IMG/VR virus record: IMGVR_UViG_3300046526_000553
Coordinates: 79,779-143,778 of that record
Direction: 5' to 3' (one strand)
DNA: 64,000 bases
Source: a virus
Lineage: Duplodnaviria > Caudoviricetes
Position 1 is the first letter of the stretch. Each line of letters opens with the position of its first letter. Position numbers and translations under genes: made by a program. Below, in pieces: positions 8,574 to 47,642 of the stretch. The notes below the pieces were generated by a model. It had not been told where the DNA came from, searched no databases, and worked only from the letters and a program-made list of their open reading frames with translations.

Positions 8574-9611
8574 CTAAAAAGGCGCTTCGCCATCACTCGG
8601 TAATGAGTTGCTCGGTTGTGCCGCAAATCCTGAAGCGAGCGCCAGCAGCAATGTTCCTTGTGATGGATTTAGCATCTGCTTCGGTCGCTTGGTGCCAGCG
8701 ATGAGGTTTTTATACAGTAAACGTCCGTTGCAATGGCTGAACCAATCGTTAAACTTTGCGCTGTCATCCATGCCACGGCGATTGAAACGGTAACAGAACT
8801 CCGCACAATATTTCTGCAAATGCTTTTTACTGACACCGACGTATATGGCTTGGATGCTTAATTTCAAATGCGCCCATGTACCTTCAAGCGAATTGATATG
8901 CGCTTCACCGCGTACGTATTCATGTTCTCCGTGATTTACGCGCATACCGATGTAGCCGAGCTTGTGTAGGGTGCGATACGGTCGGTATTCGTCTGTCATC
9001 ACTGTCGCACCCTTGGCGACATGAGACTGTATGAGCTGGTGCACAGTTGTGGCGGATGTGTCGGAAGTCGCCATCAACCGCAGATTGCCTTTACGCTCCA
9101 GTATTCCGACGACCGGCGCTTTGCTATATTGGCTCCCACGCCCTTGAGCGCCTTTGACGCGTTTGTTGTAGTGTTTGTTTGATTCTCGGCCCCCGATGTA
9201 AGATTCATCAATCTCAACGATATTGCCAAGCAGGTCTTTGTTACCTGAATTTTCAAATCCGTAACGGATTCTTTGCAGCATAAACCAACAACTTTTTTGC
9301 GTAATCTTAAGCTCTTTGGCGAGCTGTACGCTAGACACACCCTTTTTGAAGTTCATATTATAGCGAGCGGCGTAAAACCATTTGAGTAACGGTATGTGGC
9401 TGCCTTCAAATATGGTGCCGACAGTCACCGTGAATTGTTTGCGGCAGTCGGCGCATTTGTACAGATTGCCATTTTGGAACTTGTAGCTTCGCAGGCTACC
9501 ACAGTGAGGGCAGAAGCGATTCTTGCTATTCTCACCCCAGCGCTGTGATTCCAAAAACGCCACACATGATGCTTCGTCGGGAAATTGTTGTTGGAACTCG
9601 AATAAACTCAT
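8574..9611 (-). CDS. IS1595-family (ISXO2-like) DDE transposase
   Basis: Zn ribbon CPHC...CADC, VEIDESYIGG, VMTDEY, HINSLEGTW, HLQKYCAEFCYRFNRR. Confidence 0.95.
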   Translation of the reverse strand: MSLFEFQQQFPDEASCVAFLESQRWGENSKNRFCPHCGSLRSYKFQNGNLYKCADCRKQFTVTVGTIFEGSHIPLLKWFYAARYNMNFKKGVSSVQLAKELKITQKSCWFMLQRIRYGFENSGNKDLLGNIVEIDESYIGGRESNKHYNKRVKGAQGRGSQYSKAPVVGILERKGNLRLMATSDTSATTVHQLIQSHVAKGATVMTDEYRPYRTLHKLGYIGMRVNHGEHEYVRGEAHINSLEGTWAHLKLSIQAIYVGVSKKHLQKYCAEFCYRFNRRGMDDSAKFNDWFSHCNGRLLYKNLIAGTKRPKQMLNPSQGTLLLALASGFAAQPSNSLPSDGEAPF

Positions 9612-23737: not shown

Positions 23738-25144
23738 TTAATCTTCATATCCCGTTGCCCAAGCTAACAGCATTGCTATATTAATACAAGCTATGCCCTT
23801 ACCATCCCGGCAAAGCATGATGTTGCTTTCCGTATGGTCATTCATAGCATTATCAAAATCTCCACCACCAAAGACTAGCGTCAATTCCTGTTCATCTGGC
23901 TCATGCCAATCTTGTCTAACACCTAATCGCTTTTTGAGTTCCAACAATTCTTTCTTTGTTCTAATCTGTTGCATCTTACCCCTTTCGTTTACTTGAAAAA
24001 ATCTTCATCCATGTTATTAATTTCACCATTATCTAAACTTGCGTCTAGCATAACTTCATTATCACTATTTCGTACTACAGTAATGTTGGCATTACCGCGC
24101 CTATCATAGCTCAAAATACCCCTGTAATTTGCCAGTTTAGGCTGTAATGTGACGTAGTTATCTTCGTATTCTTCAAATTTAGTACCATTCACCTCTACCT
24201 TGAAAACTTTATCTAACTTTGGCATTTTACCCCTTTCGTTTAACTTACTCTACAAGCATACACCAGCAGTAACAATAAAGTCAATGATTTTTTACTTGTT
24301 TTTTACATTCCGGCATACTTCGCAGTTCTTCTACCAATTCAGATTTATGTGATTCCATTGCCAAACGCCATAAAGCCTCTTTTCCAGCTTCAGTTACGTT
24401 ATCTTGTTCATCAATATAGCCTGATTCAACCAATAAACAATTTTCATCATCTGAATTTGGCTCATTGCAATAAATTAATATTCTCATAACTAACAGCCAA
24501 AATAATACCATACCAATAATTATCATTTTACTTCCTTTTCATGGCATACGGCACAAACCCCATTGATATTACAATGCTTACCGTTATTAACTTCGGCAAA
24601 ACCACAAACATAATAATCCACATTACCCCCTATACTGTCGGCAAATTAATGTCTTTAGCTGCTTTCACAACTCCAAACTGCGTAACTATTTCAAACCATT
24701 TTGTAATACCAGATTGAATACCATTGCCATCTCGACCATTTCCGTTGATACCCACAATTCCAATCTGATAGCCCCAATTCCAACTTGGCGCACTATAAAA
24801 ACCGGTTCTGTAATAGTTTGGTTGTATATTACCAAAATATTTCTTAGCGTTATCTATGGCTGTTTCATCTTCCAAGTACCAGTCTTTCAATTCTTTGTAA
24901 CTTATCGTATTCATGGCTACTCCCTCAATTTACTTCCGTGTTATATTTATATAATCGCATTCTCTTTAAATTCTCGTACTAAACGGTATTTACGTGCAAT
25001 TTCGTAAAAAAATGCTTGCCAATCCGCTAGTTCACTCCAATACCAATCATGATTACCAAAATCTGATTGCCATTCTATAGCCAAATCCCTTGCTTGTTCA
25101 GCATTTTTGATACTGCTTATTTCAGGTATTATCATTTTAACCAT
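23738..25144 (-). other. Small hypothetical genes (23738-23974, 23989-24225, 24281-24526, 24630-24914, 24947-25144)
   Basis: Mostly AAGGGG-type RBSs; boxed promoter at 24255-24284. Confidence 0.65.
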
Positions 25145-44794: not shown

Positions 44795-45139
44795 ATGAAA
44801 AAACATATAGTAACTTTTTCCCAAATAGTTTTTTTATTAATCTTATTTCCAATTATAATTTTGGTCATTATATCTATATCATTCTCAAGCTATTTAAAAT
44901 TGAAGTGGCACAGAAGCTGGGTTCTGCGTAGTATTATTACGATTATATTTATAGGATGTTTTATAGTTTTTGCTGCTGGTGTTACTAGGGAGCAGGATAA
45001 ATGTAATAAGTTGGCTAGTAAACAATTAAGTAAAAAACAATATCTTATAATGCAGGAGCAATATAATCGGCAGAAACCTACACCACGCATGCAATTTAAT
45101 GAATCTTTATATGTTTTTAATAAATGTATTGGCTCATGA
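44795..45139 (+). CDS. 2-TM membrane protein
   Basis: Two hydrophobic helices. Confidence 0.55.
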   Translation: MKKHIVTFSQIVFLLILFPIIILVIISISFSSYLKLKWHRSWVLRSIITIIFIGCFIVFAAGVTREQDKCNKLASKQLSKKQYLIMQEQYNRQKPTPRMQFNESLYVFNKCIGS

Positions 45140-45141
45140 GA

Positions 45142-45170
45142 TTGACATTTCCGTTACGCTGGTGTATATT
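45142..45170 (+). promoter_or_regulatory. Promoter of pentamer array 1
   Basis: TTGACA-17-TATATT with gctggtg box; array begins 8 nt downstream. Confidence 0.85.
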
Positions 45171-45177
45171 AATTATT

Positions 45178-45918
45178 GGCTTGGATAGTCCTGCTTAGAC
45201 ACCTCTGGGCTCGGTGCGTCACGGCTAGGCGAGGCAGGCGAGTTGAGTCTGGTCTCGGTGCGTCGTGGCACGTCGTGGTGCGTTGTGGTAATCGGAGCGG
45301 GGCAGGTTATGTTCAGGCAAGTCGGGGCTACGCAGGCACGTCGCCATTTGGCTAGATACGGTTAGTCTAGATATGTTTAGACAGGGCATGGCAGGCAAGG
45401 CTGGGTTCCGATGACTCGTTGGGGCTGGTCGTCACGAGTCACGGCTAGGCGAGGCAGGCTAGGAAAGTCGGGATGCGTCCCGCCATGTCGAGGCGCGTGA
45501 TGACATGACAAGATATGGACAGGCAGGCTTGGCACCGATGTCGCGGTCAGTCGAGACCTGTCAGGGTCAGACTAAGCATGGCAGGCGGGGGAAGTCGCGT
45601 CGGGTTGAGCCGGGGTTTGGTTTGTCGGGTCTTGAGTTAGCGTGTTCTGTTGAGGTTAGGCAGGCAAGTCGTTTCTTGGTATGTCTCCTCGTGGCACGTC
45701 GAGTCATGTCAAGGCGTTACACGGCAGGCATGACGTGGATGGCGAGTTCCGACGAGTCCGTGCGAGATTAGGCAATGCAGGCAAGATGTGACAGGTTCTG
45801 TTGTGTCGAGTTTTGTCAGGTTGGGGCGTAGCTAAGCAATGCATGGCAGGCAAGTCGAGTCCCGGTTAATCGGGTCGAGTCCGGACGAGTCTTGGCGGGG
45901 CGAGGTAAGGTGCGATTA
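45178..45918 (+). ncRNA. Pentamer (G-D-Y-N-N) repeat array, 12 units delimited by GCAGG; candidate guide-RNA array
   Basis: 5-nt phase such as ggcta ggaaa gtcgg gatgc gtccc gccat gtcga; GCAGG at 45234, 45302, 45332, 45391, 45454, 45523, 45581, 45660, 45724, 45777, 45846. Confidence 0.8.
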
Positions 45919-45921
45919 TTA

Positions 45922-45950
45922 TTGACTTTTAGGTGGTGTTGGTGTAATGT
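45922..45950 (+). promoter_or_regulatory. Promoter of pentamer array 2
   Basis: TTGACT-17-TAATGT with gttggtg box; same ATTATTGGC start context as array 1. Confidence 0.7.
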
Positions 45951-45958
45951 ATATTATT

Positions 45959-46057
45959 GGCGGGGAATGTCGAGGCATACTGAGTTAAGTCTTGGTGAGT
46001 CAGGTCGAGACTAGTCAATGCAGGTACGTCGAGGTTTATTATGTCGAGTCAAGGCTT
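45959..46057 (+). ncRNA. Second short pentamer array, 2 units
   Basis: ggcgg ggaat gtcga ggcat actga gttaa gtctt ggtga gtcag gtcga gacta gtcaa tgca ggtac gtcga... Confidence 0.75.
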
Positions 46058-46061
46058 CCCT

Positions 46062-47642
46062 TTATATAAACCACCGCCGTTCAGAGGTCTGAGGCGTGGA
46101 ATTGCTCCACGTCTTTTCCCTTTTTTCACTCATTCCCTCAATATTAACGTTATCATCTTCAGCCTTACTTTCTCTGTCATCAGAATATAAACTCCAAATT
46201 TTTGGAATTTTTCCGCTGGGCTCCCATACAGCTAGAGCACAACTATAGAAAGAATCTGCGTGTCCTTCAGAACTTTCCTGTGCTCGTAAATCATTGTCAA
46301 CCATTAGTATTTGTGAAATCTGGCGACGTTCATTTATAAAATGAATAAGATTTTGATTCACTAACCCACCGAAATGAGCTGCCATAGCACCGGTTCTTCT
46401 GCTACTCATAACAATCGGTTGCATACAACCGTCTAGCTTTCCTCTTTCAGCATAACTTTGCAGCTCGCCCCTAGTATCATCATAATATAAGTTACTTACA
46501 TTAAAATATTCACAAACTCTATTAACATGGTCAACCTGGTCTTTATAATCAATGCCATCAAACCAGTGTCCATAGACTTGTCTATATGAATAAATATCTT
46601 TTCCTTTATCATCCTCATGCTCGAATTTCTTGGCGAATAAAGCTAAATGTGATGGGTGAACTTTTTTACCAATGTCAAGTCCCGCAACAACAATTTCATC
46701 CTGCAATAATGGTTGTGGTTCTAGTTTACAGTTTTCTCTTGTGCTTAGCTCAATTAATTTGTCTCTTTTTATATAAGAACGTGATAATGCTACTGGCATT
46801 GCCTGATATTCTCGGTCAAATGTATCTGCATCCATCGAGATTCGTATAGCATTTAATTGGTCATAACTATATCTTTCAGGCCATAGTGTAACTTTATTTG
46901 GTTCATCAATAATTGAGGGAGCAATTGTTATTTTGAATAAAGTTCCTATACCCTTTTTATCGAAAAAGAAATCTTGGCCAGTCTGTGGGGTCCCAGCCAT
47001 TCGACAGATACCATTAGGTTTCTTAATCATAGGTAATAAGTCGCCCCGAATTGCATTATTTATTTTTTTAATCGCCACTGGGTCAGGAGCAGCGCCATCG
47101 GTTTCGGTTTTTAGCGGATCGTCAACATAAAGTCTGTCACAATGGATTCCTCGATTATTGCCGAGTAATCCTTTGGGGTGTATGGTCATCAACGAGCCTT
47201 TTTCACCCCAACTATAACTTAAGATGCTCTCGGCTTGAGGTTTCCTATCGATAAGCGTTGAGAAGAATGGATTATAAGCAATTTCTTGTTTTAATTTTTT
47301 TAGTTGATAACTAGCCATTGATTCAGAATATGAAAAATATTGTGCTTCGAAGCCTGCATTGTCCGTTGCAATAAATATCGCATAACAAATATCACAGTGT
47401 AATCTTGTACTTTTAAAATGGTCACGACCAGAAACATCAATTGTATACTTATTTTCTTCAAAGTTTTTGGCAATATCTTCCAAGTATTTTCCTGTAACAA
47501 ATGTGCTATTAGGCTCGAAACAATATCTAAATATATTATCTATGAACCAGTAGAATCCTGAAGACCTAGCTTTCTTCCGTGCCAAATCAATAGCCAAAGC
47601 TATCTTCTGCAGCTGCTGTTCTTGCTCATCACTTTCGTTCAT
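46062..47642 (-). CDS. terL: Terminase large subunit
   Basis: Walker A variant GRDHFKS, RGIHCDRLYVDDP, GTPQ, LWPERY, FDREYQ, AGLDIG RNase H-like nuclease, HADS. Confidence 0.9.
   Translation of the reverse strand: MNESDEQEQQLQKIALAIDLARKKARSSGFYWFIDNIFRYCFEPNSTFVTGKYLEDIAKNFEENKYTIDVSGRDHFKSTRLHCDICYAIFIATDNAGFEAQYFSYSESMASYQLKKLKQEIAYNPFFSTLIDRKPQAESILSYSWGEKGSLMTIHPKGLLGNNRGIHCDRLYVDDPLKTETDGAAPDPVAIKKINNAIRGDLLPMIKKPNGICRMAGTPQTGQDFFFDKKGIGTLFKITIAPSIIDEPNKVTLWPERYSYDQLNAIRISMDADTFDREYQAMPVALSRSYIKRDKLIELSTRENCKLEPQPLLQDEIVVAGLDIGKKVHPSHLALFAKKFEHEDDKGKDIYSYRQVYGHWFDGIDYKDQVDHVNRVCEYFNVSNLYYDDTRGELQSYAERGKLDGCMQPIVMSSRRTGAMAAHFGGLVNQNLIHFINERRQISQILMVDNDLRAQESSEGHADSFYSCALAVWEPSGKIPKIWSLYSDDRESKAEDDNVNIEGMSEKREKTWSNSTPQTSERRWFI

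What the first reader, a model, noticed from the sequence alone, without database searches (positions are those of the whole stretch)
45142..46057. Promoter-fronted array of G-D-Y-N-N pentamers punctuated by GCAGG: candidate guide-RNA array with a non-contiguous code
Seen in sequence: a GC-rich island of about 880 bp with no credible ORF, in an AT-rich genome. It parses into 5-nt units with a constrained triplet (mostly GGC, GTC, GGT, GTT, GAC, GAT) and a free dinucleotide. One unit reads ggcgg gggaa gtcgc gtcgg gttga gccgg ggttt ggttt gtcgg gtctt gagtt agcgt gttct gttga ggtta ggca. A 4-nt xGCA phase break (GCAGG) divides it into 12+2 units, with delimiter spacings 68, 30, 59, 63, 69, 58, 79, 64, 53 and 69. 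Each sub-array starts just downstream of its own sigma70-type promoter with the same ATTATTGGC context. Inference: constant scaffold triplets, variable dinucleotides and regular delimiters are what one would expect if a polymerising protein binds one pentamer per subunit and presents NN for pairing, with GCAGG as a processing site. That would be a CRISPR-like array with no contiguous spacers. From memory, not verified here, this resembles recently reported phage GGY/NN-repeat guide RNAs (VIPR) paired with a RAMP/Cas7-like protein. The anchors here are more degenerate (many GTC, GAC, GTT).
Basis: partly seen in the sequence, partly recalled or inferred. Interest (0 to 1): 0.96.

Follow-up and report, generated by a model that had tools for sequence, protein, structure and literature searches.

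The report
Second VIPR guide-RNA array in phage
This GC-rich tract is a real array of about 14 five-base-repeat guide RNAs for the phage's own VIPR system (a CRISPR-related, RNA-guided DNA silencer first described in 2026); it is a new example of a known kind, lies unusually far from its protein gene, and has one guide that spells the conserved core motif of a mobile-element gene family (DUF3768).

Summary
Window 45180-46054 has a strong 5-nt period and parses into Y-N-N-G-D pentamers. The GCAGG spacings are exactly as reported. Every delimiter is a 4-nt unit (GGC-A-GGC) that shifts the register by -1.

The interpretation (VIPR-type guide array) is supported.
- The same 143.8-kb phage genome encodes a Vipr RAMP protein 47 kb away. 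Its profile hits PDB 36pp 'SUSP1 Vipr protein' (E 2.8e-5) and its fold is Cas7/Csm3-like. An accessory gene and a sister array with the same punctuation and promoter class lie beside it.
- 76 of 80 IMG/VR relatives carry such arrays beside vipr.
- Guide U12 (45851-45900), decoded by the published 1-nt-skip rule, matches codon positions 1-2 of the motif NDPYGE[HR]DFG of DUF3768. All 34 viral sites are in frame, as are 75 of 80 genome sites, and the phage itself has no such gene.
- A relative with 52% terL identity has a syntenic array converging on terL.

Not shown: transcription, processing at GGCAGGC, and targets of the other guides.

It differs from SUSP1 in a relaxed second scaffold base, no 3' pseudoknot tail, and a distal position with its own promoters.

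This scan has already noted VIPR-like arrays 168 times in at least 135 other genomes. This is a new member of a known kind.

The parts
45142..45170 (+). Promoter P1: TTGACA, 17-nt spacer, TATATT, followed by ATTATTGGC.
   Evidence: Matches the consensus at 11 of 12 positions. Belongs to the phage promoter class TTGAC[AT]-N12-13-TGGTGTA, which also drives the vipr operon and the solo unit.
45180..45915 (+). Sub-array 1, 12 guide units. Pentamer bodies: U1 45180-45234, U2 45239-45288, U3 45293-45332, U4 45337-45391, U5 45396-45454, U6 45459-45523, U7 45528-45581, U8 45586-45660, U9 45665-45724, U10 45729-45777, U11 45782-45846, U12 45851-45915. Each unit is 8-15 Y-NN-G-D pentamers. Units are separated by a 4-nt C-AGG unit; the U2/U3 break is TAAT.
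   Evidence: Information is 0.79, 0.12, 0.14, 1.19 and 0.40 bits at pentamer positions 1-5.
45851..45900 (+). Guide part of U12 (my label B15). NN = AA GA CC TA GG GA CG GA TT GG, which reads N-D-P-Y-G-E-R-D-F-G under the 1-nt-skip rule.
   Evidence: A homologous guide in L003/L004 shares 18 of 20 NN letters. The consensus pattern hits 34 viral sites, all in frame on the DUF3768 motif. The exact pattern gives at least 120 genome loci, and 75 of 80 read NDPYGERDFG.
45239..45288 (+). Guide U2 (B2). NN = GA GA TG TC GC GT AC GT GC GT, i.e. [DE][DE]W-S-A-V-T-V-A-V. Its target is only tentative.
   Evidence: Related guides occur in L085 and L080. Pattern hits are mixed. The largest coherent in-frame group is a 53-55 aa membrane protein found in AT-rich contigs.
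45922..45950 (+). Promoter P2: TTGACT, 17-nt spacer, TAATGT, followed by ATTATTGGC.
   Evidence: Fits the phage-specific promoter class. It is not called by the generic consensus scan.
45961..46054 (+). Sub-array 2, two units: U13 45961-46020 (12 pentamers), C-AGG at 46021-46024, U14 46025-46054 (6 pentamers).
46091..46125 (+). Intrinsic-terminator-like hairpin plus T-run, closing the array transcript inside the 3' end of convergent terL.
46062..47642 (-). Large terminase gene, convergent with the array. Context only, not part of the system.
   Evidence: phrog_38, E 3e-20.
44795..45139 (+). 114-aa ORF of unknown function that ends 3 nt before P1. Context only.
   Evidence: no family found.

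Best explanation
The tract is a second, distal array of VIPR guide RNAs (vrRNAs). It serves the Vipr protein that the same phage encodes 47 kb away.

Two promoters of one phage-specific class drive transcripts of 12 and 2 units. Each unit is a run of 8-15 pentamers.

By analogy with the SUSP1 cryo-EM structures (inferred, not shown here), one Vipr protomer binds each G-D-Y scaffold triplet and presents the two variable bases. The variable dinucleotides of a unit pair with double-stranded DNA, skipping every third target base. A guide therefore reads codon positions 1-2 of a gene whatever the wobble base or GC content, and the bound filament blocks transcription.

Units are delimited by a unit that lacks one base (GGC-A-GGC). 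This breaks the 5-nt register. I infer that it ends one filament and starts the next, exposing a junction for trimming.

At least one guide is aimed at the most conserved motif of DUF3768. These genes are carried by other phages and integrative elements. The likely role is silencing of competing mobile elements.

Shown here: the periodic anatomy, the Vipr gene, arrays across the clade, one decoded target, and the lack of a clear self-target.

Inferred: transcription, processing, filament assembly and repression.
For: Anatomy.

Vipr in the same genome:
- The best PDB sequence hit is 36pp 'SUSP1 Vipr protein', E 0.0028 for the single sequence and 2.8e-5 for the profile. The match covers the thumb arginine and the G-loop.
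- The AlphaFold model (pLDDT 77) matches Csm3/Cas7 subunits at E about 1e-5.

The vipr operon carries one unit, an accessory gene and a 600-bp array with the same GGCAGGC punctuation.

All four VIPR RNA loci share the promoter class.

Clade: 76 of 80 IMG/VR vipr loci have same-strand 5-nt arrays. They hold 913 GCAGG and almost no CCTGC, and the GCAGG spacing is 4 mod 5 in 519 of 822 cases.

In relatives, NN carries 0.05-0.11 bits and the scaffold 1.05-1.38 bits.

NN composition fits sense codon positions 1-2 best: -3.84 against -3.98 to -4.18 bits per NN.

Target. Control patterns of the same size gave 0, 0 and 0 hits.

Self-targeting: all guides but one fall inside the shuffled-guide range on the own genome. 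The exception is U6 at 21 of 26 (listed under evidence against). The own genome has no DUF3768 gene.

Synteny: relative L085 (terL 52% identical) has promoter-fronted arrays converging on terL. They use the same punctuation but other guides.

The rule works in this clade: the vipr-adjacent guide matches rivals' vipr genes at 22 of 24 and 20 of 24, in frame, but its own vipr at only 15 of 24.
Against: - No RNA data.
- Only one of about 14 guides has a convincing target.
- The last three pentamers of U12 do not match the DUF3768 sites.
- The DUF3768 motif is so conserved that hits span many taxa, so the natural target element is not identified.
- U6 scores 21 of 26 (81%) on the phage's own genome near window 30188. 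That is one above the shuffled maximum of 20 and at the published 80% line.
- The scaffold departs from GGY at its second base.
- No 3' tail or pseudoknot like that of type II vrRNAs is present.
Confidence: 0.9

Rival explanations
1. The array is a set of decoy or hijacking vrRNAs. It would not serve the phage's own Vipr. Instead it would load onto, and misdirect, the Vipr proteins of rival phages or helpers, as the solo vrRNAs of F5 satellites and VIPR-null phages are reported to do.
For: Solo vrRNAs far from any vipr gene are documented (bioRxiv 10.64898/2026.10.15.759431). This array is 47 kb from vipr and has its own promoters. Five complete relatives show GGCAGGC clusters only beside vipr.
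Against: The genome is VIPR-positive. The distal array shares the relaxed G-D-Y scaffold, the GGC-A-GGC punctuation and the promoter class with the array beside vipr. The one decoded target is a gene of other mobile elements, not a multicopy decoy site.
Confidence: 0.05
2. The tract acts as DNA, not RNA. It would be a packaging (pac), replication or recombination site next to the terminase genes, with the G-rich 5-nt phasing giving a protein-binding or structured DNA element.
For: It abuts terL and terS. G is strongly in excess on one strand.
Against: The same architecture sits beside vipr in this genome and in 76 of 80 relatives, regardless of any terminase gene. Three other terL relatives lack it. 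It is flanked by promoters and a terminator. One unit decodes to a foreign protein motif.
Confidence: 0.03
3. The tract is a degenerate or unusual protein-coding region, or a chance composition island.
For: ORFs of up to 88 aa can be drawn in it.
Against: The period is 5, not 3. The longest ORF drawn in it is 88 aa, and the register slips by -1 about every 60 nt. No Rfam family matches. Only 4 such islands exist in 143.8 kb.
Confidence: 0.01

Closest known systems
VIPR systems (Vipr protein plus vrRNA); characterised type II example: Escherichia phage SUSP1. Sources: bioRxiv 10.64898/2026.04.26.720920 and 10.64898/2026.04.26.720927.
   Same: A small stand-alone RAMP protein and an accessory gene, both phage-borne. 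The guides are runs of 8-15 pentamers with a fixed triplet and a free dinucleotide. Targets are read with one skipped base that falls on the codon wobble position. There is no clear self-target.
   Different: - The Vipr is only distantly related. The match to SUSP1 Vipr covers the C-terminal thumb and G-loop only, and SUSP1 W178 is an invariant Gly here.
- The second scaffold base is G, T or A rather than G.
- There is no invariant 3' tail or pseudoknot; units abut through GGC-A-GGC.
- Units are 53-79 nt rather than about 100 nt.
- This array lies 47 kb from vipr.
'Staggered vrRNA arrays' of the VIPR discovery preprint (fig. S18; only the legend could be read).
   Same: The legend says neighbouring vrRNAs derive from positions that overlap by 1 nt, so that the end of one marks the start of the next. 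That fits the -1 register break at every GGC-A-GGC junction here and in 76 of 80 relatives.
   Different: The figure and tables could not be read, so identity is not confirmed. The preprint states that the other two architectures, not this one, were confirmed by small-RNA sequencing.
Solo or orphan vrRNAs of F5 satellites and VIPR-null SUSP1-like phages (bioRxiv 10.64898/2026.10.15.759431).
   Same: vrRNA genes with their own promoters, far from any vipr gene. Guides aimed at rival elements, including rival vipr genes. Here the vipr-adjacent guide does this.
   Different: Here the genome keeps vipr and vap. The distal locus is a 14-unit array rather than 1-2 solo guides.
Cyanophage Cy-LDV1 (BK059895; host Cylindrospermopsis raciborskii), genes g34 and g33.
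   Same: It is the closest named phage record. g34 is 60.6% identical to this Vipr, and 5-nt arrays with GGCAGGC follow g34 and g33.
   Different: It is GC-rich with the canonical GGC scaffold. The genes are annotated as hypothetical, and no distal array was examined.
Class 1 CRISPR crRNA-Cas7 filaments (Csm3, Cmr4, Cas7).
   Same: The RAMP fold. A guide-bound protein filament with periodically flipped bases, as described in the VIPR preprints.
   Different: No repeat-spacer array, no contiguous spacers, no cas1/cas2, and no other cas genes nearby.

Membership tests
VIPR (Vipr + vrRNA) | A Vipr protein is available: a stand-alone RAMP with an RRM core, a thumb and a Gly-rich loop, not in a CRISPR context. 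| tested here: met
   P0001 (231 aa) lies 47 kb upstream. Its profile hits PDB 36pp 'SUSP1 Vipr protein' at E 2.8e-5, over the RP thumb motif and the G-loop. Its fold matches Csm3/Cas7. No Pfam or PADLOC family matches.
VIPR (Vipr + vrRNA) | Tandem pentamers (at least 4, typically 9-16) with a conserved GGY scaffold and hypervariable NN. | tested here: met
   There are 8-15 pentamers per unit. NN carries 0.12-0.14 bits, against 0.79 and 1.19 bits for Y and G1. One deviation: G2 is G .40, T .42, A .14. AT-rich relatives L083 and L085 share this relaxation. The preprint's text lists the alternative consensuses NNNGG, YNNNG and NNNNG but not this one.
VIPR (Vipr + vrRNA) | Targets follow the 1-nt-skip rule, with the skipped base on the codon wobble position. 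| tested here: met
   Met for one guide. U12 matches the DUF3768 motif in frame at 34 of 34 viral sites and 75 of 80 genome sites. The vipr-adjacent guide also matches rival vipr genes in frame. Other guides are unresolved or tentative.
VIPR (Vipr + vrRNA) | No self-targeting at 80% NN match or above. | tested here: inconclusive
   All guides fall within the shuffled range on the own genome except U6. U6 scores 21 of 26 (81%), against a null maximum of 20.
VIPR (Vipr + vrRNA) | vrRNAs lie in the intergenic regions flanking vipr and vap. | tested here: not met
   This array is 47 kb from vipr, between a 114-aa ORF and terL. The sister array does flank vipr and vap. Published solo vrRNAs show that adjacency is not obligatory.
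VIPR (Vipr + vrRNA) | Expressed as small RNAs that co-purify with Vipr. | not testable with these tools
Only promoter-like and terminator-like signals are available.
VIPR type II (SUSP1 / P. fulva clade) | An invariant 3' tail folding into a pseudoknot after the repeat tract. | tested here: not met
   Junction logos from 913 relatives' sites and 22 own sites show only GGC-A-GGC, with a weak A preference in the preceding NN. No Rfam match. tblastn of this Vipr against 50,697 phage records does not reach SUSP1.
CRISPR array | Direct repeats of 23-50 nt alternating with contiguous spacers, usually with cas genes nearby. | tested here: not met
   The only periodicity is 5 nt. The sole repeated block is 22 nt long and occurs twice. 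The neighbours are terminase, HNH, Fic-like and VWA genes.

The most novel reading that the evidence does not exclude
This AT-rich lineage may represent a VIPR variant in three respects.

1. Its Vipr reads only G1 and Y of the scaffold (G-D-Y).
2. Guides are delimited without any tail or ribozyme, purely by a one-base-short unit (GGC-A-GGC) that breaks the filament register.
3. A separate, promoter-fronted guide regulon has been placed beside the packaging genes.

Its decoded target, DUF3768, sits next to a serine recombinase and a replication-relaxase-like gene in an integrated element of an AT-rich Patescibacteria genome. The array could therefore be the first glimpse of RNA-guided warfare between a large phage and integrative elements of candidate-phyla-radiation bacteria. 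It would also mark DUF3768 as a gene those elements cannot do without.
Probability: 0.2. Interest if true: 0.6.

Novelty: new member of a known kind. Interest (0 to 1): 0.45.

Why it matters
This is a large, clean natural example of the 2026 VIPR code, in a lineage far from the studied E. coli and Pseudomonas systems. It offers four testable points:
- A scaffold whose second base is free, which bears on what Vipr must recognise and on guide design.
- Tail-less punctuation by a one-base-short unit. The discovery preprint did not validate this architecture by RNA sequencing.
- A guide array uncoupled from vipr. Searches confined to the neighbourhood of vipr will therefore undercount guides.
- A decoded target, the invariant NDPYGE[HR]DFG core of DUF3768. 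No paper in the searchable library mentions this family. Being singled out by a phage's silencing system suggests it matters to the mobile elements that carry it.

Tried and rejected
- megablast of the region against 50,697 phage records found nothing.
- Searching viral contigs with the terL protein found no relatives. Relatives came only from the protein database.
- The genome search could not draw relatives for a virus record. It also does not hold the Logan contigs L083, L085 and L087, so I could not tell whether L085's phage has vipr.
- Gapped-pattern scans that found nothing: U12 units 2-11, U6, U11, and all 13 units of U12 in metagenomes. The last three pentamers of U12 are therefore probably not guide.
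- The U13 pattern gave 9 hits spread over five unrelated families in AT-rich contigs. I treat these as chance.
- The U2 pattern gave 5 viral and 51 metagenome hits of mixed kinds. The small membrane protein group is only a lead.
- No other guide converges on the contigs that carry the U12 or U2 hits. A single multiply targeted element, as reported for SUSP1, was therefore not found.
- The SUSP1 W178-to-Gly change cannot explain the relaxed scaffold, because GC-rich relatives with the canonical GGC scaffold also have the Gly.
- No Rfam family, including hammerhead ribozymes, matches.
- DUF3768 and PF12599 return no papers.

Full report
**1. The observation**

Window 45180-46054 is a GC-rich (0.52), G-skewed island in a genome of 39.6% GC.
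- Base autocorrelation peaks at lags 5, 10, 15 and so on (0.41 against about 0.23). There is no 3-nt signal.
- In the whole 143,778-bp phage contig, only four islands pass a 5-nt periodicity threshold. This is the largest.

A phase-tracking HMM gives the register Y-N-N-G-D. Information is 0.79, 0.12, 0.14, 1.19 and 0.40 bits at positions 1-5. The fifth position is G .40, T .42, A .14, C .03.

Every true delimiter is a 4-nt unit, C-AGG. In scaffold terms this reads GGC-A-GGC, one base short, so the register slips by -1.

- The GCAGG at 45302 is in phase and is not a delimiter. The U2/U3 break is a 4-nt TAAT.
- Three units (U5, U7, U10) carry a second internal 4-nt slip (ATGA, ATGT, ATGG) after 2-3 pentamers.

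The count of 12+2 units stands.

**2. Transcription signals**

- P1 (45142-45170) matches the sigma-70 consensus at 11 of 12 positions.
- P2 (45922-45950) has a weak -10 by the generic rule. Both promoters belong to a phage-specific class, TTGAC[AT]-N12-13-TGGTGTA, found 17 times in the genome. That class also drives the vipr operon and a solo guide unit.
- Both promoters are followed by ATTATTGGC.
- A hairpin plus T-run at 46091-46125 closes the unit inside the 3' end of convergent terL.
- No Rfam family matches.
- No RNA data could be obtained.

**3. The protein partner**

Genome 73000-80500 (L001) carries on the minus strand, in order:
- a promoter of the same class;
- a 231-aa protein (P0001);
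- one guide unit followed by a hairpin;
- a 189-aa protein (P0002; phrog_15946, function unknown);
- a 600-bp array with the same pentamers and GGCAGGC junctions.

P0001's best hit among all PDB sequences is 36pp, 'SUSP1 Vipr protein'. The E-value is 0.0028 for the single sequence and 2.8e-5 for a 26-sequence profile.

The aligned stretch holds the thumb arginine (SUSP1 R138, R154 here) and the G-loop (SUSP1 D177-W178-R179, E193-G194-R195 here). The cryo-EM preprint reports these residues as the contacts to the two scaffold guanines and the pyrimidine.

The AlphaFold model (pLDDT 77) matches Csm3/Cas7 subunits at E about 1e-5.

**4. The clade**

P0001 has 2,445 homologues in the protein database, and at least 551 IMG/VR stretches encode a relative.
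- Of 80 loci fetched, 76 have 5-nt-periodic arrays on the vipr strand within a few hundred bases of the gene. They hold 913 GCAGG and almost no CCTGC. GCAGG spacing is 4 mod 5 in 519 of 822 cases, with modes at 44, 49 and 54 nt.
- Across 5,599 pentamers of relatives the scaffold is canonical (C .80, G .90, G .89) and NN carries 0.05-0.11 bits.
- AT-rich relatives (L083, L085) share the relaxed fifth position seen here.
- The junction logo shows only GGC-A-GGC, with a weak A preference in the preceding NN. There is no conserved tail.
- The closest named phage is Cyanophage Cy-LDV1, whose g34 is 60.6% identical. It has such arrays after g34 and g33.
- The legend of fig. S18 of the discovery preprint ('staggered' arrays whose vrRNAs overlap by 1 nt) fits this punctuation. 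I could read only the legend. The preprint says this architecture was not among those confirmed by small-RNA sequencing.

**5. Is the distal position conserved?**

- One relative with 52% terL identity (L085, a 43-kb Logan contig of 42% GC) has the same arrangement. A promoter-fronted array of about 10 units lies next to a Fic-like gene. A second promoter with two units abuts the terL stop. Both are on the strand opposite to terL.
- Its guides differ from those here, except for a recognisable relative of U2.
- Three other terL relatives lack an array there.
- Five complete GC-rich relatives show GGCAGGC clusters only beside vipr.
- The distal array is therefore a feature of this lineage, not of the clade.

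**6. What the guides read**

- NN composition fits sense-strand codon positions 1-2 of the phage's own genes better than any other frame, strand or the genome background. The score is -3.84 against -3.98 to -4.18 bits per NN, and the sister array behaves the same way.
- On the own genome, the 1-nt-skip rule gives nothing beyond shuffled guides. The exception is U6 at 21 of 26 against a null maximum of 20.

Guide U12:
- Comparing guides between phages showed that U12 (45851-45900) has a counterpart in IMG/VR relative L003/L004, whose Vipr is 59% identical. 18 of 20 NN letters are the same, while the Y and D scaffold letters differ freely. That pattern is what one expects if NN is the selected information.
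- The consensus of the two guides, written with one wildcard per unit, hit 33 viral contigs (34 sites). Every site lies in frame on the peptide NDPYGE[HR]DFG.
- All 8 ORFs tested are Pfam DUF3768, with E between 1e-29 and 1e-36.
75 of 80 read NDPYGERDFG in frame.
- Three control patterns of equal size from other guides gave no hits at all.
- The phage has no DUF3768 gene.
- Most genome hits are Alphaproteobacteria. Some are AT-rich Patescibacteria MAGs. In one of these (L236, 36% GC) the DUF3768 gene lies beside a replication-relaxase-like gene and a large serine recombinase, next to trmD. That looks like an integrated element.

Limits on the U12 result:
- The last three pentamers of U12 never match.
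- The motif is too conserved to name the natural target element.
- No other guide converges on the same contigs.
- An earlier follow-up in this scan had a similar 'guides spell conserved motifs' claim marked down on later checking. I therefore claim the match, not its biological breadth.

Other guides:
- U2 has relatives in two other phages. It matches a 53-55 aa membrane protein in AT-rich contigs, among many other hits, so this is only a lead.
- U13's hits look like chance.

**7. The rule in this clade**

The single guide between vipr and vap reads D-D-[FL]-[DE]-[HQ]-A-[KN]-[HQ]-V-S-T-[KN].
- It matches the vipr genes of relatives in frame at 22 of 24 (L033) and 20 of 24 (L006). 15 of 80 loci score at least 19 of 24, against a shuffled maximum of 19.
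- It matches its own vipr at only 15 of 24.
- This parallels the vipr-targeting vrRNAs of the October 2026 preprint.

**8. Verdict**

The tract is a second, distal vrRNA array of the phage's VIPR system (confidence 0.9).

Rivals:
- Decoy RNAs for other phages' Vipr: 0.05.
- A DNA-level packaging or replication element: 0.03.
- Coding sequence or chance: 0.01.

The kind is known from three 2026 preprints. This scan has already noted it 168 times in at least 135 other genomes. I therefore class it as a new member of a known kind.

Its particular points are the free second scaffold base, the tail-less one-base-short punctuation, the separate promoter-fronted regulon beside terL, and the DUF3768 target.

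Noticed in passing
L001:4087-4146 (-), i.e. genome 77086-77145, about 2.6 kb left of the window: The single guide unit between vipr and the accessory gene matches the vipr genes of related phages in frame, on the motif DDY.QA.H.ST. Scores are 22 of 24 and 20 of 24, and 15 of 80 loci reach at least 19 of 24. It matches the phage's own vipr at only 15 of 24. This is an anti-rival-VIPR guide that spares self.
   Followed up: partly
L002:1223-1282 (+), i.e. genome 58722-58781: A solo 12-pentamer guide with its own promoter of the same class, preceded by GGAATAGCAGGC. It is the fourth 5-nt-periodic island of the genome. Its target was not found.
   Followed up: partly
Whole genome; in the window at 24284, 25800, 26348, 28526, 30054, 32326, 34574, 35451, 44662, 45142, 45922 and 59297: A phage-specific promoter class, TTGAC[AT]-N12-13-TGGTGTA, occurs 17 times. 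It includes all four VIPR RNA transcription units, which suggests one temporal class or one phage-encoded specificity factor.
   Followed up: partly
Window about 30188 (-): Guide U6 (45459-45523) matches the phage's own genome at 21 of 26 NN positions (81%). That is one above the best of 100 shuffled guides. It may be chance or weak autoregulation.
   Followed up: no
Window 45218-45239 and 45438-45459: A 22-nt block, GTCACGGCTAGGCGAGGCAGGC, ends both U1 and U5. U1 also shares TG-TC-GC with U2. Units look mosaic, as if new guides arise by recombination between units.
   Followed up: partly
L085:7551-7750 and 8826-9325 (-): A relative (terL 52% identical) has promoter-fronted arrays converging on terL. 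Four small genes are inserted between its long array and its two-unit array.
   Followed up: partly
L236:1519-4740: In a Patescibacteria MAG contig (36% GC), a DUF3768 gene that matches guide U12 at 20 of 20 sits beside a replication-relaxase-like gene and a large serine recombinase, next to trmD.
   Followed up: partly
P0001 residues 188-196 (Vipr G-loop): The tryptophan that stacks on the second scaffold guanine in SUSP1 Vipr (W178) is an invariant glycine in this whole family, although the GC-rich members still use GGC scaffolds.
   Followed up: partly
L306:3025-4650 (Cyanophage Cy-LDV1, BK059895, g34-g33): A cultured-host cyanophage carries an unannotated VIPR locus of this clade (vipr, array, accessory gene, array). 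It lies between the cI-like repressor region and an excisionase gene, and could serve as an experimental handle.
   Followed up: partly
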